Below are positions 997 to 33,601 of a stretch of DNA of 64,000 bases, in pieces (position 1 is the stretch's first letter; each line of letters opens with the position of its first letter). The notes under the pieces were generated by a model that had not been told where the DNA came from, did not search any database, and worked only from the letters and a program-made list of their open reading frames with translations. This DNA comes from an uncultured Methanosarcinales archaeon. GTDB taxonomy: Archaea > Nanobdellota > Nanobdellia > Woesearchaeales > CAYPCY01. The translations under genes and the position numbers were made by a program. The stretch lies in the NCBI GenBank assembly GCA_964409385.1, contig CAYPCY010000001.1, positions 41,456 through 105,455 of the forward strand. Reading direction: 5' to 3'.

Positions 997-1671
997 TTAT
1001 ATTAATTTTAAACTAGCTTTTTCAAGAATAAAATCATATTTTGAAAGTTTTCCTTTTCCATCATAAACAGGATAAGAAATTCCTAGAACAGAATCAGGCT
1101 CAGAATCTTTTGCATTAATAACTACGCTTGGAGAATATTTTATATCCAATTCAAACTTATCATATCCTAAATTCAATTCTAATTTTTTCTTAATTCCATA
1201 AACACTCGTTATTTCCCTTGTTGTTTCATAGTCTGTAGATGAATGAAAAGTGTCAAAATAAGCATGTGAATGAATCCAACCAATAATTCTTTTTTGTTCT
1301 TTAATAATTTTTTTCTCAAGACATTCCACCTCTAAAACTTCACAATATGCCCTTTCAATTTTTTGCCTATCTGGTAATTGTAAATCTATTATTTCATCAG
1401 AATCATTCTCAGAAATTGCATAAAGAAAGATTTCTAGTGGAGAATTATATTTTTTAATAATTTTTTTTGCAAGATAAATTCCTTTTAATAATGCTTTTTT
1501 CTTAATTATTACTTGTTTTGGAAAGATATTTATAGTTTCCTGAATCGACACATTAACATAATTTGAAAGAAGTTTAATTATTGTTTTTTCTCTTTTATTA
1601 TATTTTTTTGACTTTTGATATTGTTTCCACCAAAATTTTAATGACTTGTTAGCAACCACAAATCTCACCAC
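997..1671 (-). CDS. JAMM/MPN+ metalloprotease (Rpn11/deubiquitinase-like), last gene of the Ubl-E2-E1-JAMM cassette
   Basis: Motif E...HSHAYFDTFHSSTD fits E-x(n)-H-x-H-x7-S-x2-D. It overlaps the upstream E1-like gene by 23 nt. Confidence 0.7.
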   Translation of the reverse strand: MVRFVVANKSLKFWWKQYQKSKKYNKREKTIIKLLSNYVNVSIQETINIFPKQVIIKKKALLKGIYLAKKIIKKYNSPLEIFLYAISENDSDEIIDLQLPDRQKIERAYCEVLEVECLEKKIIKEQKRIIGWIHSHAYFDTFHSSTDYETTREITSVYGIKKKLELNLGYDKFELDIKYSPSVVINAKDSEPDSVLGISYPVYDGKGKLSKYDFILEKASLKLI

Positions 1672-2929
1672 ACAAATCTTTTTTTCTTGAAAATAAATTT
1701 TGTGAATAAGAAGAAAAATTTAATGAAACATTTTTATTCAAATTTAAAGATAATGCTTCCACTGCCATTTGAGTTCCTACAAACATATTAGTTGTTATCA
1801 CACTAGGAGAAATATTTTCAGACATACAAGAATTTTTAATTTCTTTAAATTTTGAAAATCCTTTTCTACAATCCAAACAATTATTCTTTGACGGAATATA
1901 TGTTGATAATTCCCCTTCAGATTGATCAGTTCTTCCATCAACATAAACTTTTCCTGCTTTTACAGCAGCAGCGCTCAAAATAGATCTGGTTTTAAAATTA
2001 TCTACACAACCAAGAATTATATCAGATTTGGAAATCAAACTATTAATATTATTAACAGAAACATTTTCAACAAGATAAGATACATTAATAGATTTATTAA
2101 GTTTTGATATTCTTTTTGCTAGACTTTTTGATTTATATTCTCCAACAAGTCCATAATACAATATTTGTCTATTTAAATTTGAAGTTTCAACAATATCTGA
2201 ATCAATAATTTTTAAATTAGTATTTGATGATGCCAAACCTAGTGCTGAAAAAGTTCCTAAAGCGCCAGCACCAACAATAAGCGCATTTCCATAGTCGTTC
2301 AACAAAGTAGGTAAAAAATAAGTTACTTTTTCGCTCTCTCTTAATTTTTTCTCACCAGTCAAAACAAACAACTCTTTCCTAACAGAGTCAAGAACTATGG
2401 ACGCAATAATTCCTGAAGTCAACATTCCTTGTTTTCTACCATGATATTCTGATAATAAAATTTCTGACAAACTTTTTTGTTTAATAAATTTAGAACTTTT
2501 TTTTGTGGAGCTAACAGAATACATTTTTATGTTTGATTTCATAGCATACTCAAAACAAATTTCTTTAGAGTAAGAATTATTTGAACATTCTATTATTATA
2601 TCTGGATTTTCATAATTAAGAATGGCCTTTATTGGTTTTATAAAATAACTTGAGTAGTTTACATTTTGATTAATAAGTTTCAAAGTTTCAATAATTAATT
2701 CGTTTTTTTTAGAACCCATACTGTTTTTTTTTAAACTAAGAAAATTAAAATTAGTTTTTGCACGGGTATTATCTATTAACACAATATTTCCAAAACCGAG
2801 TGCTGAAAGTCCTGCTAAAATATATTGGGATGAAAAATCAGTTCCAGAAACAAGTATTTTGGTTTTTTTTAACTTATTTTGATTTTTACGCCCCCATATT
2901 CTAACATGTCTATCTTCAACATCATACAT
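1649..2929 (-). CDS. E1-like ubiquitin-activating enzyme, single chain with an N-terminal inactive adenylation domain and a C-terminal active adenylation domain (eukaryotic Uba1/SAE/NAE-like architecture)
   Basis: N-half has DRHVRIWG...KILVSG with a degenerate Gly loop, matching the YDRQIRLWG start of eukaryotic E1 regulatory subunits. C-half has IVGAGALGT...IDSDIVETSNLNRQ (ThiF/MoeB/E1 ATP-binding motif), CLDC (CxxC) and a candidate catalytic Cys in SCMSENISPS followed by GTQMAVEALSL. The C-terminus is CGEICGC. Confidence 0.7.
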   Translation of the reverse strand: MYDVEDRHVRIWGRKNQNKLKKTKILVSGTDFSSQYILAGLSALGFGNIVLIDNTRAKTNFNFLSLKKNSMGSKKNELIIETLKLINQNVNYSSYFIKPIKAILNYENPDIIIECSNNSYSKEICFEYAMKSNIKMYSVSSTKKSSKFIKQKSLSEILLSEYHGRKQGMLTSGIIASIVLDSVRKELFVLTGEKKLRESEKVTYFLPTLLNDYGNALIVGAGALGTFSALGLASSNTNLKIIDSDIVETSNLNRQILYYGLVGEYKSKSLAKRISKLNKSINVSYLVENVSVNNINSLISKSDIILGCVDNFKTRSILSAAAVKAGKVYVDGRTDQSEGELSTYIPSKNNCLDCRKGFSKFKEIKNSCMSENISPSVITTNMFVGTQMAVEALSLNLNKNVSLNFSSYSQNLFSRKKDLCGEICGC

Positions 2930-3973
2930 TTAACTAACCTCGCAAATTTCAAGATTAGTATTTTTTAAAGTATAATAGGGAATTAATAAATCATTAAAAT
3001 TAATAGGATTTAATTCTCTATGAACTGCTACATTATTAGTAACTCCTTTTTTCAAAAGATTTTCTCCTGTAATCAATACATCTGCAATTTGGCCTGCAAC
3101 ATTATTTTCTTTTAGCTTATTAATATTATAAGAATTAAATGACACTCTTTTGTCTCTCCAATATTGTTTTATATAAGGACCGTGACATATTGATCGAGAA
3201 TTTGTTGAATAATTTGTTAATGGATGTTTATATTTACCTTTTACTCTTGCAATTGTAAATTGAAGTAATGAATTATTAAGAGAAATAGTAGTGTATACTT
3301 CTGCTGGAGGAAATTTATAATAATTGGTGCCTGATTTTATTATAAAAGTTTCCAACTTAGAGATAATTTGATATTTTGAATTTCCAATTTTATTAATTGA
3401 AATATTTCTTTTTATAATAGGAAATTTTTGAATAATATAATTATTGTTAAATGTAATATTTGAATCAATTAAGAAATCATATTTTCTTTTAAATTTATTA
3501 TATGACATCAAATTAGTTAAGGAATACGTACTTTCTTCAAAGTTCACATATTCATGATTATTTTTTGAAGGATTTAAAGAATAAATATTTGTTTGATAAA
3601 AAAGAAGTCCTTTATTCTTATCTAAAATATTATTTATTAATGATTTATTAAATTTTTTTAAATTAACATTAGCTTTTTCAGTTTTTCTTCTACTAATTTT
3701 TTTATTTTTTTTAATAATAAAATACTCATTTGCGACCTCTTCGAAAAAATTATTAATAGTGAAATTTTCTTTTTTATTAGGTATATTATTGTACTTCTCC
3801 AATAATTCATTTTCTAAATATTTAATACTTTCAGAAATTTCAAGGCCTATTTTTATATCATGAAATGCGAGAAAATTATTTTTGGATTCTTTTGTTAAAG
3901 TATATATTCTTTCTTTCATTATTATAAAAGGATCTTTAGAATCCATAAGAATTTTAATAAGTGAAGGAAGCAA
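2930..3973 (-). CDS. E2-like (UBC-fold) ubiquitin-conjugating enzyme candidate with a ~200-aa N-terminal extension of unknown function
   Basis: C-terminal region YKFPPAEVY...KHPLTNYSTNSRSICHGPYIKQYW resembles the E2 core YPFKPP...HPN-x(8-10)-ICL-x(6-8)-W. The stop/start abuts both the Ubl gene and the E1 gene. Confidence 0.4.
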   Translation of the reverse strand: MLPSLIKILMDSKDPFIIMKERIYTLTKESKNNFLAFHDIKIGLEISESIKYLENELLEKYNNIPNKKENFTINNFFEEVANEYFIIKKNKKISRRKTEKANVNLKKFNKSLINNILDKNKGLLFYQTNIYSLNPSKNNHEYVNFEESTYSLTNLMSYNKFKRKYDFLIDSNITFNNNYIIQKFPIIKRNISINKIGNSKYQIISKLETFIIKSGTNYYKFPPAEVYTTISLNNSLLQFTIARVKGKYKHPLTNYSTNSRSICHGPYIKQYWRDKRVSFNSYNINKLKENNVAGQIADVLITGENLLKKGVTNNVAVHRELNPINFNDLLIPYYTLKNTNLEICEVS

Positions 3974-4378
3974 TTACTTTCCTCCTGCGGGTGTATAATC
4001 CATCACTAAATTTATTGATTTAAAAGTTACTTGTGAAGAACCTATAGGACGCTCTTCTTCATTAAGAATTTGTGAAGAATAATCTCCTATTATATCTTGT
4101 AAGCCTATTTCAGTTAATTGGTCATTATTATTTTTAAAATATATTGATGTTCTTCCTTGATTATTTTCCATCCTATTTTTCCATCTCTTTAAAGTTGTTG
4201 TAGTTTCTATTTGAGAAGAAGAGTATTCTTCATTCAAATCATCTTTTTTATTAGTTAATAAATAGTCAGTTATATCTGAAAATGTTCTTTCCATATAAGA
4301 ACTATTCACTTGTTTTGTTAAAGTTTCCAAATTATTTTGTCCTCTTGCTGATAAAGATGTTATTATTGGTTTTTCCAT
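3974..4378 (-). CDS. Ubiquitin-like modifier precursor candidate (C-terminal ...NLVMDYTPAGG-K), first gene of the cassette
   Basis: 134 aa ending in a diglycine plus one extra Lys, as expected for a Ubl that needs C-terminal processing. It abuts the E2-like gene and is co-oriented with the E1 and JAMM genes. The fold itself is not verifiable by eye. Confidence 0.35.
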   Translation of the reverse strand: MEKPIITSLSARGQNNLETLTKQVNSSYMERTFSDITDYLLTNKKDDLNEEYSSSQIETTTTLKRWKNRMENNQGRTSIYFKNNNDQLTEIGLQDIIGDYSSQILNEEERPIGSSQVTFKSINLVMDYTPAGGK

Positions 4379-4524
4379 TTTAATACCTCCAGTAATTTCA
4401 ATTAAAACTATTACTATTTTTTTTATTTAAATTATTGAAGAAAAAGTCTCAGATTTTCAAGAATCTTGAATAACTGTCGACCTCATAGAAAAGTATTTAA
4501 AGTTCTTGCTTTTTTTTCTTATTA

Positions 4525-5160
4525 ATGAAAAGGGTGATTCAAAGGCTTATTAGTAAGCTATTTGGGGGTTTGTTTGGTATTAAAAAAAGGATTAAATTAG
4601 GATTGTATGGTCCTCCAAACGGTGGAAAAACAACTTTAGCAAACAAAATTTGTAAGGATACTCTCGGAGAAGATATTGGTTCAGTTTCCAATGTTCCTCA
4701 TGAAACTAGAGAGATTCAGATTAAAGAAGAAATTAAAATTGAAAGTGATGGAAGATCATTAACTTTTAACCTTGTAGATACTCCTGGAATTGCTACTAGA
4801 ATTGATTATGAAGATTTCTTAAAGTTTGGAATGAAAGAAAAAGAGGCTAAAGAAAGGGCCAAAGAAGCAACAAAGGGAGTAATAGATTCTATTAAATGGC
4901 TTGATGATATGGATACAGTATTAGTAGTTCTTGACTCAACAAAGGATCCTTTTACTCAAGTTAATATTACTATTATTGGAAATCTTCAAGCTAGGAAAAT
5001 TCCTGTTTTAATAGTTGCTAACAAAATTGATCTTAAAAAATCAGATATTAAAAAAGTTGAATCTGCATTTCCTCAATATCCCCTAGTAGGTATTTCTGCT
5101 AAACACGGTAATAATTTAGAAGAATTTTATGATAAAGTTTTTGATTTGGTGAATAAATAA
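4525..5160 (+). CDS. Small GTP-binding protein (Ras-like/TRAFAC class GTPase)
   Basis: G1 GPPNGGKTT, G3 DTPG, G4 NKID, G5 SAK. The stop overlaps the next start (ATGA). Confidence 0.7.
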   Translation: MKRVIQRLISKLFGGLFGIKKRIKLGLYGPPNGGKTTLANKICKDTLGEDIGSVSNVPHETREIQIKEEIKIESDGRSLTFNLVDTPGIATRIDYEDFLKFGMKEKEAKERAKEATKGVIDSIKWLDDMDTVLVVLDSTKDPFTQVNITIIGNLQARKIPVLIVANKIDLKKSDIKKVESAFPQYPLVGISAKHGNNLEEFYDKVFDLVNK

Positions 5161-5537
5161 TGTTAACTTTGCAATTCATTCCTTATTTTGAAATTGAACA
5201 ATTAGATTCTGAAGAAAGAATTAAAAAATTAATTAAATTGGTTAAACAAGAAAAAATAGTTTTGTTAGAAGGACGATTAGATCAAGAAGAAGAAACTGAT
5301 TTAATTAGAAGGACAATGGAAGAAATTTCTGGAAAATTTAAAGGCATAGAATTAAGTGTTATTTATCCTGATGGTGGAGATTCTGATTTTTTTAATAAAT
5401 TAAAACAGACAATATTAAATGTTATTCTTGGAAATAGACAAGGCATGACAATAATAGGTCCTGCATCTATAATTAAAGAAATAAAACAAGATCCTGATAA
5501 GATTCAATTATTTGCTATAGATAAGAGGCGAAAATAA
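5160..5537 (+). CDS. Conserved archaeal protein of unknown function (DUF2073-like), co-operonic with the GTPase
   Basis: 125 aa. Translationally coupled to both neighbours. The family assignment is from memory of conserved archaeal GTPase/DUF2073/Zn-ribbon neighbourhoods. Confidence 0.35.
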   Translation: MLTLQFIPYFEIEQLDSEERIKKLIKLVKQEKIVLLEGRLDQEEETDLIRRTMEEISGKFKGIELSVIYPDGGDSDFFNKLKQTILNVILGNRQGMTIIGPASIIKEIKQDPDKIQLFAIDKRRK

Positions 5538-5918
5538 ATGTCGCACCAATGTGTTAATTGTGGTAATTTATTTGATAATAAATCTGAGAAAATATTAACT
5601 GGTTGTGATTGTGGTGGAAAATTATTTTTTTTCATTAAAAATAATGCATCAATAAAAAAATCTTCTGAGGATCTAATTAAATTAACAACTAAAGATAAAA
5701 AACAAATTGAAAAAGATGTTTATGATTTAATTGGGAATGAATTAGATAAAGATAAACCAATAGTTCTTGATTTAGAAACTATTAAAATTCTTAAGCCTGG
5801 TAAGTATGAGTTAGATCTTGTTTCTTTATTAAAAAAGAAACCTTTAATATTTAAACTTCAAGAAGGAAAGTATGTTATAGATCTTACTGAAAGTTTTAAA
5901 GAAAAATATTTTAAATAA
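5538..5918 (+). CDS. Zn-ribbon protein (CxxC...CxC)
   Basis: N-terminal CVNCGNLF...GCDCGG. It follows the DUF2073-like gene directly. Confidence 0.5.
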   Translation: MSHQCVNCGNLFDNKSEKILTGCDCGGKLFFFIKNNASIKKSSEDLIKLTTKDKKQIEKDVYDLIGNELDKDKPIVLDLETIKILKPGKYELDLVSLLKKKPLIFKLQEGKYVIDLTESFKEKYFK

Positions 5919-5919
5919 G

Positions 5920-6675
5920 ATGTTTGTTGATTGTCATGCCCATTTAGATTCTGAAAAATTTACTAATTTGTCCAGTATTTTAGATAATTCTGTTAAATCA
6001 GGTGTTAAAAGAATCATGAATAATGGATTGGATCCTGAAAGCAATAGAAGAACATTAGAACTTTCTAAACATAAAATTATTGATGCAGCATTAGGTATTC
6101 ATCCCACAATTATTCCTGAATTATCTATAAATGAAATTGATAAAGAAATTAGTTTTATTGAGAAAAATGTTGATGTTATTAAGGCTATTGGCGAAACAGG
6201 TTTAGATTTTCATTGGATTGATAAGAGTGATTTGAAAATTGTTAAAAAAATGAAGGAAACTTTTGAAAAACTTGTAAAGGTTTCTTTAAAGTATTCTAAA
6301 CCTATTATTGTTCATTCTAGAAAGGCAGAACTTGAAACTGTTGAGTTACTTGAAACTCTTAATAGTGAAAAAGTTGTTATGCATAGTTTTACTGGAAAGA
6401 AAGCATTATTAAAAAGAATTATTAAAAATAAATGGTTTGTTTCAATTCCTTGTACTGTAGTTAGAAGTACGCAAATTCAAGATTTTGTTAAGTTAGTTCC
6501 TTTAAAACAATTACTTACTGAGACTGATTGTCCTTGGCAATCTCCATTTTCTGGCAGAAATAATGAGCCAAGATTTGTTTCTGAATCAATAAAAAAGATT
6601 TCTGAAATTAAAGAAATTAATGAAATAGAATTACAAAAGATTATTTTTTCTAATTATATTCGATTGTTTGATTAA
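5920..6675 (+). CDS. tatD: TatD-family metal-dependent hydrolase/DNase
   Basis: MFVDCHAHLD start, with conserved His/Glu/Asp positions typical of TatD. 251 aa. Confidence 0.85.
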   Translation: MFVDCHAHLDSEKFTNLSSILDNSVKSGVKRIMNNGLDPESNRRTLELSKHKIIDAALGIHPTIIPELSINEIDKEISFIEKNVDVIKAIGETGLDFHWIDKSDLKIVKKMKETFEKLVKVSLKYSKPIIVHSRKAELETVELLETLNSEKVVMHSFTGKKALLKRIIKNKWFVSIPCTVVRSTQIQDFVKLVPLKQLLTETDCPWQSPFSGRNNEPRFVSESIKKISEIKEINEIELQKIIFSNYIRLFD

Positions 6676-7480
6676 TAACTTTTTCAATCAGAAAACTATC
6701 TAAATTAATATGTTGTTCAACTCCTTGGTTTAATTTTTTTCTGTTTAATTTTTTGCCTGAACTTTCAAATAATACACTATTAATTCCTTTCTTTGATAAG
6801 TATTCACTCATAGTATAATATCCTGGTTCAAAAGTTAAAATTTTTTCAAGAGCTGTCTTTTCAAAACCTAATGCGTAACCATGAATATTCAATTTCCATT
6901 TTGGAATTGTTCTAGAATCTAATTCGTTAACAAACTTATTAGTTTTATTAAGAAAAGTATTATTAAATTTATTTTTTTTTAGAATTGTTATTGTAGCTGG
7001 TAAAAATCGTGAGTATGCGTGATGATCTATATGTAAATAAATTCCTTCTTCTATTAAATTATCAATTTCATTTCTGAGAGCTGACGCAATTTCTGTATTT
7101 ATGCTATTTTCTTGAAACCATATTCTATTAAGATCTACCTTATCAACTATACTGTTAGTGTCTTTATAGTGATCTATTGTTCGTCTAGCTCCATTTCTAG
7201 CAGCCCAAGGATTACAAAATACTGCTTTGAAAGTTATATTATCAAAAGAATTCTTGTATTTTTCTACTATATTCTTTGCAGATTCTGCAAATGAATAGCA
7301 AGCGGCATATTCATCTCCGTGTAATGCATAGGTTGAAAGTATTGTTTTTTTCCCATTTCCAATTTCTGCACTTATTAAGTATTTATCAAAAGAATTAATT
7401 TTTTTAAGTTTTACATTAAATCCTCTACTTTCTAATTCTTCTAAAGAGTATAATACTTCATGATATGAGTTTTCTTTCAT
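6650..7480 (-). CDS. Zinc hydrolase of the succinylglutamate desuccinylase/aspartoacylase (AstE/AspA, M14-like) family
   Basis: ALHGDEYA, NPWAARNGARR and HIDHH motifs. Confidence 0.55.
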   Translation of the reverse strand: MKENSYHEVLYSLEELESRGFNVKLKKINSFDKYLISAEIGNGKKTILSTYALHGDEYAACYSFAESAKNIVEKYKNSFDNITFKAVFCNPWAARNGARRTIDHYKDTNSIVDKVDLNRIWFQENSINTEIASALRNEIDNLIEEGIYLHIDHHAYSRFLPATITILKKNKFNNTFLNKTNKFVNELDSRTIPKWKLNIHGYALGFEKTALEKILTFEPGYYTMSEYLSKKGINSVLFESSGKKLNRKKLNQGVEQHINLDSFLIEKVINQTIEYN

Positions 7481-8985: not shown

Positions 8986-8992
8986 TGTAGTG

Positions 8993-9064
8993 GACCCGGC
9001 CGGAGTCGAACCGGCGATCTTCGCCAAGTCAAGGCGACGTCATAGCCACTAGACCACGGGTCCT
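8993..9064 (-). tRNA. tRNA-Val (anticodon GAC), no encoded CCA
   Basis: Reverse complement GGACCCGTGGTCTAGTGGCTATGACGTCGCCTTGACTTGGCGAAGATCGCCGGTTCGACTCCGGCCGGGTCC folds as a cloverleaf: 7-bp acceptor, T-arm GCCGG/CCGGC with TTCGACT loop, anticodon stem TCGCC/GGCGA with loop TTGACTT. Position 37 is T, which is atypical. Confidence 0.7.
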
Positions 9065-32854: not shown

Positions 32855-33155
32855 CTAATGCTTTTGTTCTTATTGCTTCTACTTTTTCTTCAATGATTAG
32901 TGTTCTATTTTCTCCCATTAGTTTTTTGTGGGAGTTTATTTCTACTATTTCAAAGAATTTTTTTAGTTTTGCCATGTTTATGTTGTCGTAGTCTTTTATT
33001 GAGGATAGTGCTTCGTAAATTTCTTGGTCTGTTGTTAGTAGGTTGTATTTTGATGGTTCGTATATTATTAGATTGTTTAGTTCTTGATCGTCTGTCATTA
33101 GAAATCTTAGTATTGTGTGTGCTGGTAAATATTTCTTTTTTAGTTCAATATTCAT
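32838..33155 (-). CDS. Hypothetical 105-aa protein inserted between grpE and dnaK, translationally coupled to both
   Basis: Its ATG overlaps the grpE stop (ATGA), and its 3' end overlaps the dnaK start by 17 nt. Confidence 0.35.
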
Positions 33156-33601
33156 TTTCCGCCTCTTGATATTTTTACTTTTGTGTGTCGTATTATTTTG
33201 TTTTTGAATTTGTATCCTTTTTGTAGTTCTTCTAATATTGTGTCTTGTTCTTCTTTTGATTCTTCTGTTAGTAGTGCTTCGTGAATGTGTGGGTTGAATT
33301 CTCCGTTTATTTTTATTTTTTGTAGTCCTTCTTTTTCTAGTGTTTGTAGTATTTGTTTTTCTATTAGTTGTATTCCTTCTTTGAATTGTTCTGGGTTTTT
33401 TGTGTTTTTCATTGCTTGTTCGAATGAATCTAGAATTGGTAGTAAATTTTTTGTTAGTTCCGCTGAGGCGTATTCGATACTTTCTTTTTGTTGTATTTCT
33501 TTTCTTTTTTTGTAGTTTTCAAAGTCTGCCTTAGCTAATTTTAAGGATTCTAACAATTGTTGATTTTCTTTTTCTAACGTTTTTATTGTATTTTTTTTCA
33601 T
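33152..33601 (-). CDS. grpE: Nucleotide exchange factor GrpE
   Basis: ADFENYKKR, LLPILDSFE, NPHIHEAL and ELQKGYKFKNKIIRHTKVKI match GrpE blocks. Confidence 0.8.
   Translation of the reverse strand: MKKNTIKTLEKENQQLLESLKLAKADFENYKKRKEIQQKESIEYASAELTKNLLPILDSFEQAMKNTKNPEQFKEGIQLIEKQILQTLEKEGLQKIKINGEFNPHIHEALLTEESKEEQDTILEELQKGYKFKNKIIRHTKVKISRGGK

What the first reader, a model, noticed from the sequence alone, without database searches (positions are those of the whole stretch)
3974..4378. Candidate Ubl encoded as a precursor with one extra residue after the diglycine (…YTPAGG-K)
A C-terminal GG followed by a single Lys implies obligatory processing, for which the operon's own JAMM protease is the obvious candidate. 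This resembles pro-ubiquitin logic and differs from SAMP/TtuB-type carriers, which usually end in GG. The protein is also long (134 aa), with a ~60-aa N-terminal region of unknown role.
Basis: inference. Interest (0 to 1): 0.55.

Follow-up and report, generated by a model that had tools for sequence, protein, structure and literature searches.

The report
Archaeal ubiquitin-like protein precursor gene
This gene encodes a ubiquitin-like tag made with one spare amino acid after its reactive Gly-Gly end, in an uncatalogued four-gene tagging operon of tiny DPANN-type archaea; the trimming logic is already known from other microbes.

Summary
Window 3974-4378 (-) is a real 134-aa gene ending YTPAGG-K, with an SD site and dN/dS 0.15 against an 83%-identical relative that ends AGG-N.

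The family sits in a conserved operon in DPANN-type archaeal MAGs:
- Ubl;
- a large E2-like protein (invariant His and Cys);
- a tandem ThiF E1 (invariant crossover-loop Cys368);
- a JAMM peptidase (E80, H134xH136x7S144xxD147).

The most likely mechanism is that JAMM removes Lys134, E1 adenylates Gly133, and the Ubl passes by thioester to E2 and then to a target. This is inferred, not shown.

The "60-aa N-terminal region" is not separate. It is conserved and forms part of the fold.

One-residue pro-Ubl trimming by an operon JAB is already demonstrated (E. aridi BilA/BilC; Caldiarchaeum Ub/Rpn11). What is new is the family, which no Pfam, NCBIfam or PADLOC model covers.

The parts
3974..4378 (-). 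Gene for the 134-aa pro-Ubl: an expanded single beta-grasp domain with a flexible tail, A131-G132-G133-K134.
3977..3985 (-). Codons GGA GGA AAG for G132-G133-K134. The predicted scissile bond is G133|K134. The same GGAGG also serves as the Shine-Dalgarno site for the next gene, 7 nt before its TTG start at 3973.
   Evidence: Sequence. The GG column is conserved with variable tails. The orthologue has GGAGGAAATTAAGTG.
4223..4243 (-). Codons for D46-D-L-N49-E-E-Y52, the most conserved motif of the family (consensus DxLNxxY). It lies in the loop between helix 33-40 and helix 54-71.
   Evidence: Y52 is invariant and D46 and N49 are at least 90% conserved in 32 sequences. Secondary structure.
4379..4392 (-). 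Ribosome-binding site of the Ubl gene (GGAGGTATTAAA before the ATG).
   Evidence: Sequence; the same arrangement is present in L001.
2930..3973 (-). 347-aa E2-like protein. Invariant H250 (codon 3224-3226) and C263 (codon 3185-3187) lie in a YKHP-x(11)-IC-x(8)-W motif. The TTG start abuts the Ubl stop codon.
   Evidence: Alignments of 4 and 8 diverged homologues. hhalign against UBE2D2/UBE2N/UBE2I gives P=8e-4 and aligns the HPN motif, the Cys, the Trp and helix 2 in register. There are no Pfam, NCBIfam, PADLOC or PDB sequence hits, and the AF2 model failed.
1649..2929 (-). 426-aa E1 made of two tandem ThiF domains. The N-terminal domain has a degenerate nucleotide-binding motif. The C-terminal domain is an active adenylation domain with GxGxxG at 220-225 (2255-2272), R254-Q255, D310, the zinc pair C351xxC354, and invariant C368 (1826-1828). 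There is no inserted Cys domain, no UFD and no rhodanese domain.
   Evidence: Pfam ThiF 1.5e-51 with two matched stretches. Alignments; C368 is invariant in 15 of 15 sequences. The profile matches MoeB, UBA3, ThiF, SAE2 and UBA5 in the PDB, and BilD is not among the 60 hits shown.
997..1671 (-). 224-aa JAMM/MPN+ metallopeptidase with E80 (1432-1434) and H134-x-H136-x7-S144-xx-D147 (1231-1272). It is the predicted pro-Ubl processing enzyme and deconjugase. Its start overlaps the E1 gene by 23 nt.
   Evidence: Weak Pfam JAB and Prok-JAB hits. The motif is conserved in homologues. The profile's best PDB hit is the Caldiarchaeum Rpn11-like protein at E=6.7e-5, followed by AMSH, BRCC36 and Rpn11.

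Best explanation
The gene encodes the precursor of a ubiquitin-like modifier. It belongs to an uncatalogued, rare family found mainly in DPANN-type archaeal MAGs and is the first gene of a translationally coupled operon: Ubl, E2-like, E1, JAMM.

Shown here:
- The protein is predicted with high confidence to be one compact, expanded beta-grasp domain.
- Its family keeps a Gly-Gly (or Gly) a few residues after the last strand, followed by an unconserved tail of 0-27 residues.
- The linked E1 has all adenylation motifs and an invariant crossover-loop Cys.
- The linked large protein has an invariant His and Cys in an E2-like arrangement.
- The linked JAMM has a complete catalytic motif.

Inferred:
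1. The JAMM peptidase cuts between G133 and K134 and frees the G133 carboxylate.
2. The E1 active domain adenylates G133 and takes the Ubl onto C368 as a thioester.
3. The Ubl is passed to C263 of the E2-like protein.
4. It is then transferred to lysines of unknown target proteins.
5. The same JAMM reverses the modification.

The exact length of the tail (one codon) probably also reflects gene packing. GGA-GGA-AAG-TAA places a GGAGG ribosome-binding site exactly 7 nt before the start of the E2-like gene.

For: C-terminus: 19 of 32 members have GG at the aligned column and 3 more are shifted by one. Six have xG. Only 3 end exactly at GG, and a one-residue tail is the commonest state. Operon-linked members from further loci end GG-NQSSTLEMML, GG-VGKAYD, GG-YTLNIVDYLK, GG-KY, GG-LYSLLK and GGG-YSPR. 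The orthologue has K replaced by N.

Operon: the same four gene types occur in loci from MAGs labelled Woesearchaeota, Methanosarcinales and in unlabelled metagenome contigs (L001, L008, L010, L012, L013, L016, L047-L054); a Nanoarchaeia MAG (L014) carries the Ubl-like, E2-like and E1 genes but no detectable JAMM.

E1: GxGxxG, RQ and D310 are invariant, and C368 is invariant in 15 of 15 sequences, including those that have lost the CxxC zinc pair.

E2-like: His and Cys are invariant in 8 sequences of 19-53% identity. hhalign against canonical E2s gives P=8e-4 with the catalytic motifs in register.

JAMM: E80/HxHx7SxxD is present, and the nearest solved relatives are ubiquitin isopeptidases.

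Precedent: CsRpn11 cuts CsUb-pre exactly after GG and removes 9 residues (PMC6043591). E. aridi BilC cuts BilA between G97 and A98, so one residue is removed (PMC10557695). E1/E2/JAB gene clusters never carry a rhodanese domain on the E1, unlike sulfur-carrier clusters (PMC1779556).
Against: - No biochemical evidence exists for any step.
- The E2 assignment rests on a motif and a weak profile match (hhalign probability 24%). The AF2 model of that protein was unusable (pLDDT 37), and no library recognises it.
- The JAMM hits to Pfam are below the gathering threshold.
- One related locus (L014) has no JAMM within 5 kb, and its Ubl-like protein has no GG.
- Four family members stop right after the last strand and cannot be conjugated.
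- No E3, target or proteasome link was identified.
Confidence: 0.65

Rival explanations
1. Sulfur-carrier system. The beta-grasp protein would be a ThiS/MoaD/QbsE-like thiocarboxylate carrier. The JAMM would trim it as QbsD trims QbsE, the E1 would adenylate it for sulfur transfer to a cofactor, tRNA or metabolite, and no protein would be modified.
For: The E1's closest sequence relatives by profile include MoeB and ThiF. Operons combining JAB, an E1 and a ThiS/MoaD-like protein for sulfur chemistry are known (PMC1779556). QbsE/QbsD is recalled from my own knowledge and was not checked here. A rhodanese/SelU-like gene lies a few kb away in the close relatives.
Against: - The E1 has no rhodanese domain, which the sulfur-type JAB operons characteristically carry.
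- A large protein with an invariant E2-like His...Cys motif is conserved between the Ubl and E1 genes in the loci examined.
- There are no biosynthetic genes in the operon, and the flanking genes differ between loci.
- The Ubl has no ThiS or MoaD Pfam signal.
- The nearby rhodanese gene is not conserved with the operon in other loci.
Confidence: 0.1
2. The Ubl precursor is real, but Lys134 is removed by a general cellular carboxypeptidase or aminoacyl-trimming activity. The operon JAMM would act only as a deconjugating isopeptidase.
For: A single basic C-terminal residue is an easy carboxypeptidase substrate (own knowledge). A 276-aa ORF at 6650-7480 nearby has no Pfam call in the precomputed tables. 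L014 keeps the Ubl-like, E2-like and E1 genes without a JAMM.
Against: Family tails reach 6-27 residues and have varied chemistry, which calls for an endopeptidase that recognises the Ubl body. In both experimentally studied operon types the operon JAB does the processing. The JAMM co-occurs with tailed Ubls in nearly every locus.
Confidence: 0.12
3. The extra codon has no role in the protein. It persists because GGA-GGA-NNN-TAA places a GGAGG ribosome-binding site at the organism's preferred 7-nt spacing before the overlapping start of the E2-like gene. Processing is then a cost of gene packing rather than a regulatory step. This is compatible with the best explanation and concerns only why the tail is exactly one residue.
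For: Window: GGAGG-AAAGTAA-TTG. L001: GGAGG-AAATTAA-GTG. The Ubl gene's own site is GGAGG-TATTAAA-ATG. All three have a 7-nt spacer. The extra residue is not conserved (K versus N).
Against: Other family members have tails of 0-27 residues with different gene junctions, for example a 12-nt gap in L008 and a 236-nt gap in L012. Spacing therefore cannot explain tails in general. It also rests on only two closely related genomes.
Confidence: 0.3
4. The operon is an antiviral defence system of the Bil type. It would tag proteins of an invading virus rather than host proteins.
For: It has the same four-part gene set as BilABCD. Some relatives (L012, L016) have the Bil gene order Ubl-E2-JAB-E1. Bil is a proven defence system.
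Against: - None of the four proteins has a significant PADLOC Bil hit; BilD scores E=0.015.
- In the window and its relatives the operon sits in a conserved housekeeping neighbourhood: OapA/B/C, TatD, archease and a P-type ATPase.
- No defence genes or CapH/CapP/WYL regulators were seen next to it.
- No relatives were found in IMG/VR viral contigs.
Confidence: 0.15

Closest known systems
Type II BilABCD operon of Ensifer aridi (BilA Ubl, BilB/CEHH E2, BilC JAB, BilD E1)
   Same: - Both are four-gene operons encoding a Ubl, an E2, a JAB and an E1.
- Both have a single beta-grasp Ubl made with exactly one residue after the reactive Gly. BilC cuts between G97 and A98 (PMC10557695).
- Both have a diverged E2 that standard profiles miss.
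- The E1 is a fused inactive-plus-active adenylation pair.
- Relatives L012 and L016 share the gene order Ubl-E2-JAB-E1.
   Different: - The host is archaeal (DPANN-type), not bacterial.
- There is no significant profile match to Bil models, and BilD is not among the 60 PDB hits shown for the E1 profile.
- The E1 is only 426 aa, with no mobile CYS domain. The invariant Cys lies in the crossover loop, as in ThiF and UBA5.
- The Ubl is 134 aa with about 45-55 extra residues woven into the fold.
- The E2-like protein is 347-633 aa.
- The window's gene order is Ubl-E2-E1-JAB.
- There is no defence-island context.
Caldiarchaeum subterraneum ubiquitin operon (CsUb, E1, E2, small RING E3, CsRpn11)
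   Same: Both are archaeal operons encoding a pro-Ubl whose post-GG extension is removed by the operon's own JAMM. That JAMM also deconjugates (PMC6043591). CsRpn11 is the best solved-structure match of the JAMM profile here (E=6.7e-5).
   Different: - CsUb is a bona fide ubiquitin-family sequence of 87 aa with a 9-residue tail. The protein here has no ubiquitin, ThiS or MoaD Pfam signal.
- No RING E3 gene is present in the operon.
- The E2 here is far larger and is not recognised by UQ_con or Prok-E2 models.
SAMP/UbaA/HvJAMM1 sampylation (Haloferax) and TtuB/TtuC (Thermus)
   Different: - Those systems have no E2.
- Their modifiers are ThiS/MoaD-type, double as sulfur carriers, and mostly end at GG.
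- Their E1 is a single-domain homodimer. The NCBIfam SAMP-E1 model scores 83 bits against a cut-off of 450.
JAB-linked sulfur-carrier operons (PdtH/PdtF/PdtG, QbsE/QbsC/QbsD, CysO/Mec+)
   Same: A small beta-grasp protein, an E1 and a JAMM peptidase are encoded in one operon. In QbsE, residues after the GG are removed by the JAMM (own knowledge; operon types in PMC1779556).
   Different: [quoted passage not shown] Here there is no rhodanese domain and no biosynthetic genes, and an E2-like protein is present.

Membership tests
Ubiquitin-like beta-grasp modifiers (Ubl superfamily, functional class) | Beta-grasp (ubiquitin superfold) structure. | tested here: met
Ubiquitin-like beta-grasp modifiers (Ubl superfamily, functional class) | A flexible C-terminal tail with a conserved terminal Gly-Gly or Gly that is, or becomes, the C-terminus. 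| tested here: met
   22 of 32 members have GG and 6 of 32 have xG at the aligned position. The tail after it is unconserved and 0-27 residues long. Residues 131-134 have low pLDDT.
Ubiquitin-like beta-grasp modifiers (Ubl superfamily, functional class) | Genomic or functional coupling to an E1-type adenylating enzyme. | tested here: met
   A ThiF-type E1 lies in the same operon in the window and in every related locus long enough to show it.
Ubiquitin-like beta-grasp modifiers (Ubl superfamily, functional class) | Covalent attachment to targets through the C-terminal Gly. | not testable with these tools
   Needs biochemistry or proteomics.
BilABCD (Type I/II bacterial ISG15-like operons) | Sequence membership of the four proteins in the BilA-D families. 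| tested here: not met
   PADLOC gives no hit for the Ubl, E2-like or JAMM proteins, and BilD scores only E=0.015. BilD is absent from the 60 hits shown for the E1 profile against the PDB. PADLOC v2 may lack Type II models.
BilABCD (Type I/II bacterial ISG15-like operons) | E1 with IAD-AAD plus a mobile catalytic CYS domain. | tested here: not met
   IAD-AAD is present (two ThiF stretches), but the protein is 426 aa with no insertion at the crossover loop. The invariant Cys368 lies 14 residues after the CxxC pair.
BilABCD (Type I/II bacterial ISG15-like operons) | The four-gene set Ubl, E2, JAB and E1, with JAB pre-processing of the Ubl. | tested here: inconclusive
   The gene set is present, with the E2 inferred. 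Pre-processing is inferred from the tailed GG. The window's gene order differs, while L012 and L016 match.
BilABCD (Type I/II bacterial ISG15-like operons) | Defence-island context or CapH/CapP/WYL regulators. | tested here: not met
   The neighbours are OapABC, TatD, archease and a P-type ATPase. No such regulators are present in the related loci examined.
Caldiarchaeum/Asgard-type archaeal ubiquitin system | The modifier is a ubiquitin-family sequence. | tested here: not met
   No Pfam hit at E<=1. No PDB sequence hit to ubiquitin, even with the family profile.
Caldiarchaeum/Asgard-type archaeal ubiquitin system | A UBC-family E2 and a small RING E3 in the operon. | tested here: not met
   No UQ_con, Prok-E2 or RING hits in the operon proteins. 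Only an E2-like motif is present.
Caldiarchaeum/Asgard-type archaeal ubiquitin system | An Rpn11-like JAMM that cleaves the pro-Ub after GG. | tested here: inconclusive
   The JAMM motif is intact, and CsRpn11 is the best PDB hit of the profile at E=6.7e-5. Cleavage was not tested.
SAMP/UbaA sampylation and TtuB | A ThiS/MoaD-type modifier, a single-domain UbaA E1 and no E2. | tested here: not met
   No ThiS or MoaD hit. The E1 is a tandem-domain protein and scores 83 bits against the 450-bit cut-off of the SAMP-E1 model. An E2-like gene is present.
Bub (6E/DUF6527) operons | A DUF6527 serine protease, and an E1 and E2 that lack catalytic cysteines (oxyester chemistry). | tested here: not met
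   No DUF6527 hit. E1 C368 and E2-like C263 are invariant. BubCD is only a distant E1 match at 3.6e-9.
JAB-linked sulfur-carrier operons | An E1 fused to a rhodanese domain, with biosynthetic genes in the operon. | tested here: not met
   The E1 has only ThiF domains. The operon has four genes and none is biosynthetic. The criterion is taken from PMC1779556.

The most novel reading that the evidence does not exclude
This is one instance of a previously undescribed ubiquitin-like conjugation system largely confined to DPANN-type archaea (MAGs labelled Woesearchaeota and Nanoarchaeia, plus two labelled Methanosarcinales). Its distinctive parts would be:
- its own Ubl family, an expanded beta-grasp with a conserved DxLNxxY loop, sometimes accompanied by GG-less paralogues;
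- a fused inactive/active E1 pseudo-dimer, like eukaryotic E1s, that keeps the primitive crossover-loop cysteine;
- a giant E2-like enzyme;
- a eukaryote-type JAMM.

It would be a lineage separate from the Caldiarchaeum/Asgard, SAMP, Bil and Bub systems. In ultra-small, host-dependent cells it might tag the cell's own or the host's proteins.
Probability: 0.4. Interest if true: 0.7.

Novelty: new variant of a known kind. Interest (0 to 1): 0.5.

Why it matters
Complete Ubl, E2, E1 and deubiquitinase operons in prokaryotes are the main evidence for how eukaryotic ubiquitination arose. So far they come from Caldiarchaeum and Asgard archaea and from bacterial defence operons (Bil, Bub, CBASS Cap2/Cap3). 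A further lineage in DPANN-type archaea would add an independent data point on two questions: which features are ancestral, and what such a system does in a minimal genome. The relevant features here are pro-Ubl trimming by JAMM, a fused IAD-AAD E1, the position of the E1 cysteine, and E3-less E2s.

In practical terms, the precursor, JAMM, E1 and E2-like proteins are small enough to reconstitute in E. coli. The prediction of a 128-Da loss (Lys134) is directly testable.

It has an exact experimental precedent in BilA.

Tried and rejected
- **Sequence libraries.** Pfam, NCBIfam, PADLOC and PDB searches of the Ubl and the E2-like protein, with single sequences and with profiles, gave nothing usable. 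The COP9 subunit 2 hits (E 0.12-0.7) and the PPAT hit (E 0.012) were judged spurious.
- **Word-indexed homologue search.** It found only the self cluster and one relative for the Ubl and for the E2-like protein, and 5 proteins with the family profile. The exhaustive HMMER search was needed to find the family.
- **E2-like structure.** The result was pLDDT 37, so no fold search was run on it.
- afdb50 was unavailable.
- **Viral links.** IMG/VR held no relatives of the E1. BFVD held no significant structural match; the best was a phage tail-assembly Ubl at E 0.023.
- **Organism name.** Exact-sequence look-ups returned no names for window proteins, and the window's genome was not among the GTDB representative hits. 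The DPANN assignment is therefore inferred from archaeal markers and from the taxonomy of operon relatives.
- **Artefact.** I considered whether Lys134 is an assembly or annotation artefact. I rejected this because the identical sequence occurs on at least 7 independent contigs and the stop is a clean TAA.
- **N-terminal domain.** I considered whether the N-terminal 60 aa form a separate domain. I rejected this on the structure model and on family-wide conservation.
Full report
**1. The observation**

The minus strand of the window carries a 134-aa ORF at 3974-4378. It starts at an ATG that follows GGAGG by 7 nt, and it ends ...NLVMDYTPAGGK-TAA. The identical protein is encoded on at least 7 contigs from independent marine metagenomes. 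An 83%-identical orthologue (P0002, locus L001) has the same length and ends ...YTPAGGN. Between the two genes dN/dS is 0.15, compared with 0.18 for the E1 gene. This is therefore a translated, constrained gene, and the last residue is real and variable.

As a control, GG within the last four residues occurs in 2 of the 69 long ORFs of the window. The other is a GrpE that ends RGGK. The motif by itself would not be convincing.

**2. What the protein is**

No curated library recognises it. Pfam, NCBIfam, PADLOC and PDB sequence searches all came back empty. An exhaustive HMMER scan of 1.84 billion cluster representatives found 33 relatives at E<=1e-3. Nearly all are 129-166 aa and align over the full length.

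With that 32-sequence alignment, AlphaFold2 gives a very confident single-domain model (pLDDT 95.2, pTM 0.87). Its elements are strands 5-11 and 20-24, helices 26-30, 33-40 and 54-71, strands 75-82 and 88-91, helix 97-104, and strands 106-112 and 115-130. Only residues 131-134 have low confidence.

The protein is thus a beta-grasp with roughly 45-55 residues of family-specific elaboration. It is distant from every solved structure.

It supplies the first hairpin and the helices of the fold. It also holds the most conserved residues of the family, D46, N49 and invariant Y52 in the consensus DxLNxxY.

**3. The C-terminus across the family**

| State at the column aligned to G132-G133 | Members (of 32) |
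|---|---|
| GG at the aligned column | 19 |
| GG shifted by one position | 3 |
| xG | 6 |
| Sequence stops right after the last strand | 4 |

After the Gly the sequence is unconserved and 0-27 residues long. Only 3 members end exactly at GG, and a single extra residue (K, N, Q, R or S) is the commonest state.

Members found next to E1 genes in further loci end GG-NQSSTLEMML, GG-VGKAYD, GG-YTLNIVDYLK, GG-KY, GGG-LDSL..., QQGG-LYSLLK and GGG-YSPR. A conserved GG followed by a disposable tail is the signature of a pro-Ubl.

**4. The operon**

The four genes are packed head to tail.
- The Ubl stop codon abuts the TTG start of a 347-aa gene (2930-3973).
- That gene abuts a 426-aa E1 gene (1649-2929).
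- The E1 gene overlaps a 224-aa JAMM gene (997-1671) by 23 nt.

*E1.* It has two ThiF domains (Pfam 1.5e-51, two stretches). The N-terminal domain has a degenerate nucleotide-binding motif. The C-terminal domain has invariant GxGxxG, R254-Q255 and D310, the zinc pair C351xxC354, and C368. C368 is invariant in 15 of 15 family E1s, including those that have lost the CxxC pair. Its position, 14 residues after the CxxC, matches the crossover-loop cysteines of ThiF and UBA5. That comparison is from my own knowledge. There is no inserted CYS domain, no UFD and no rhodanese domain. By profile, the active domain is about equally close to MoeB, UBA3, ThiF, SAE2, UBA7 and UBA5. BilD is not among the 60 hits shown, and BubCD is distant.

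*E2-like protein.* It has no library hit. Eight homologues of 19-53% identity share an invariant Y-x-H-(P/I), 11-16 residues, I-C, usually followed by W, and then a helix of the form IAxVL...L. A single pre-specified hhalign comparison with UBE2D2, UBE2N and UBE2I aligns HPN, the catalytic Cys, the Trp and helix 2 in register, at P=8e-4 and probability 24%. I treat it as an E2-like enzyme with catalytic C263. This is an inference, because the AF2 model was unusable (pLDDT 37).

*JAMM.* It has E80 and H134-S-H136-x7-S144-xx-D147, conserved in its homologues. Its profile matches the Caldiarchaeum Rpn11-like protein best (E=6.7e-5), then AMSH, BRCC36 and Rpn11.

**5. Distribution and context**

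The same gene set, sometimes ordered Ubl-E2-JAB-E1 and sometimes with two JAMM paralogues or a second GG-less Ubl paralogue, occurs in:
- Woesearchaeota MAGs (L008/L015, L013);
- a Nanoarchaeia MAG (L014), which carries only the Ubl-like, E2-like and E1 genes, with no detectable JAMM;
- two MAGs labelled Methanosarcinales (L012, L016);
- eight metagenome contigs.

Nothing was found in IMG/VR. The window is 25-33% GC. It carries archaeal markers next to the operon: an OapA-like GTPase, OapB, OapC and TatD at 4525-6675. Archease, Cdc6 and TFIIE are present in the syntenic relatives. The neighbourhood is conserved between two genomes that differ by about 20% at the nucleotide level, and it contains no recognisable defence genes. 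In other lineages the flanking genes are unrelated. I could not obtain an organism name for the window.

**6. Mechanism**

Shown here by computation: the fold, the conserved GG with its variable tail, the operon linkage, and intact catalytic motifs in the E1 and the JAMM.

Inferred: the JAMM removes Lys134. The E1 adenylates Gly133 and forms a thioester at C368. The Ubl moves to C263 of the E2-like protein and then to target lysines. The JAMM also reverses the modification.

Two experimental precedents support the inference. CsRpn11 cuts CsUb-pre exactly after GG and removes nine residues (PMC6043591). E. aridi BilC cuts BilA between G97 and A98, removing a single residue (PMC10557695). In addition, prokaryotic E1/E2/JAB clusters lack the rhodanese domain that marks sulfur-carrier operons (PMC1779556).

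One side observation concerns why the tail is exactly one codon. The GG codons GGAGGA followed by AAG-TAA place a GGAGG site 7 nt before the TTG start of the E2-like gene. That is the same spacing as at the Ubl gene's own start, and L001 keeps it (GGAGGAAATTAAGTG). Gene packing may therefore help to explain the one-codon tail.

**7. Comparison with known systems**

In function it works like a Bil or Caldiarchaeum-type operon. It is not a member of any of the following families:
- **Bil:** profiles are not matched, and the E1 lacks the CYS domain.
- **Caldiarchaeum/Asgard type:** the modifier is not a ubiquitin-family sequence, and there is no RING E3.
- **SAMP:** an E2-like gene is present, and the SAMP-E1 model scores far below its cut-off.
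- **Bub:** the catalytic cysteines are invariant, and there is no DUF6527.
- **Sulfur-carrier/JAB operons:** there is no rhodanese domain and there are no biosynthetic genes.

Full-text searches found no description of a DPANN Ubl/E2/E1/JAMM operon. That library is incomplete, so earlier cataloguing elsewhere cannot be excluded.

**8. Verdict**

It is wrong about the N-terminal region and overstated in its contrast with other prokaryotic Ubls.

The one-residue precursor is ordinary for this class. The interest lies in the family and operon, which appear to be an uncatalogued archaeal variant of prokaryotic ubiquitin-like conjugation systems.

Interest 0.5; novelty: new variant of a known kind.

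Noticed in passing
window 3973-3985 (-) and 4379-4392 (-); L001 8354-8368: The Gly-Gly codons GGAGGA, the extra codon and TAA together place a GGAGG Shine-Dalgarno site exactly 7 nt before the TTG (GTG in L001) start of the E2-like gene. The spacing equals that at the Ubl gene's own start. The one-codon tail may partly reflect translational coupling.
   Followed up: partly
window 33152-33601 (-): A GrpE homologue (Pfam 5.8e-38) also ends ...SRGGK. It serves as an internal control showing that a terminal GG-K occurs by chance in this window (2 of 69 long ORFs).
   Followed up: yes
L016 10243-10650; L011 1533-2009; L013 3207-3623; proteins P0025, P0028, P0035: Some genomes carry a second paralogue of the Ubl family that stops right after the last strand. 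It has no GG tail, so it cannot be conjugated, and its role is unknown. It could be a decoy, an adaptor or a target.
   Followed up: no
proteins P0006 (270 aa) and P0034 (402 aa): P0006 is a tandem duplication of the domain without a terminal GG. P0034 embeds the domain between an N-terminal extension and a C-terminal hydrophobic, probably membrane-spanning, segment.
   Followed up: no
window 1826-1828 (-), E1 residue C368; alignment: The crossover-loop Cys is invariant in 15 of 15 family E1s even where the CxxC zinc pair is lost (L012, L014, L023). Larger relatives carry a 40-60 residue insertion before the DIIxGCxDN motif rather than a CYS domain.
   Followed up: partly
window 4525-5918 (+): The genes for an OapA-like GTPase, OapB (PF09846) and OapC (PF09845) are transcribed divergently from the Ubl operon. 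In the syntenic relatives a Cdc6/Orc1 gene lies about 6 kb beyond the JAMM gene, so the operon may lie near the replication origin.
   Followed up: no
L048 2049-3950; L049 2223-3887; L053 2193-3809: In one subgroup the gene between the Ubl and the JAMM is 538-633 aa. The E2-like HMM misses it, but it keeps an HP(Y/F)xH...(I/L)C motif near its C-terminus. It is probably a further diverged E2-like enzyme.
   Followed up: partly
L014 3124-6410: This Nanoarchaeia locus has the Ubl-like, E2-like and E1 genes but no JAMM within 5 kb. Its Ubl-like protein ends ...YDLGLGSKHLDSYLP, without a GG. It is an exception to the family pattern.
   Followed up: no
L012 2448-3719 and 7162-10263: The E2-like protein of L012 itself ends ...TSGGL. 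A 1033-aa protein downstream begins with the N-terminal segment (KSIEPIKIT-YALDKSNYIAKRI) that also opens the L012 JAMM homologue; a JAMM catalytic motif in it was not checked.
   Followed up: no
window 8991-9063 (-): A single tRNA gene is the only Rfam hit at gathering threshold in the 64-kb window.
   Followed up: no
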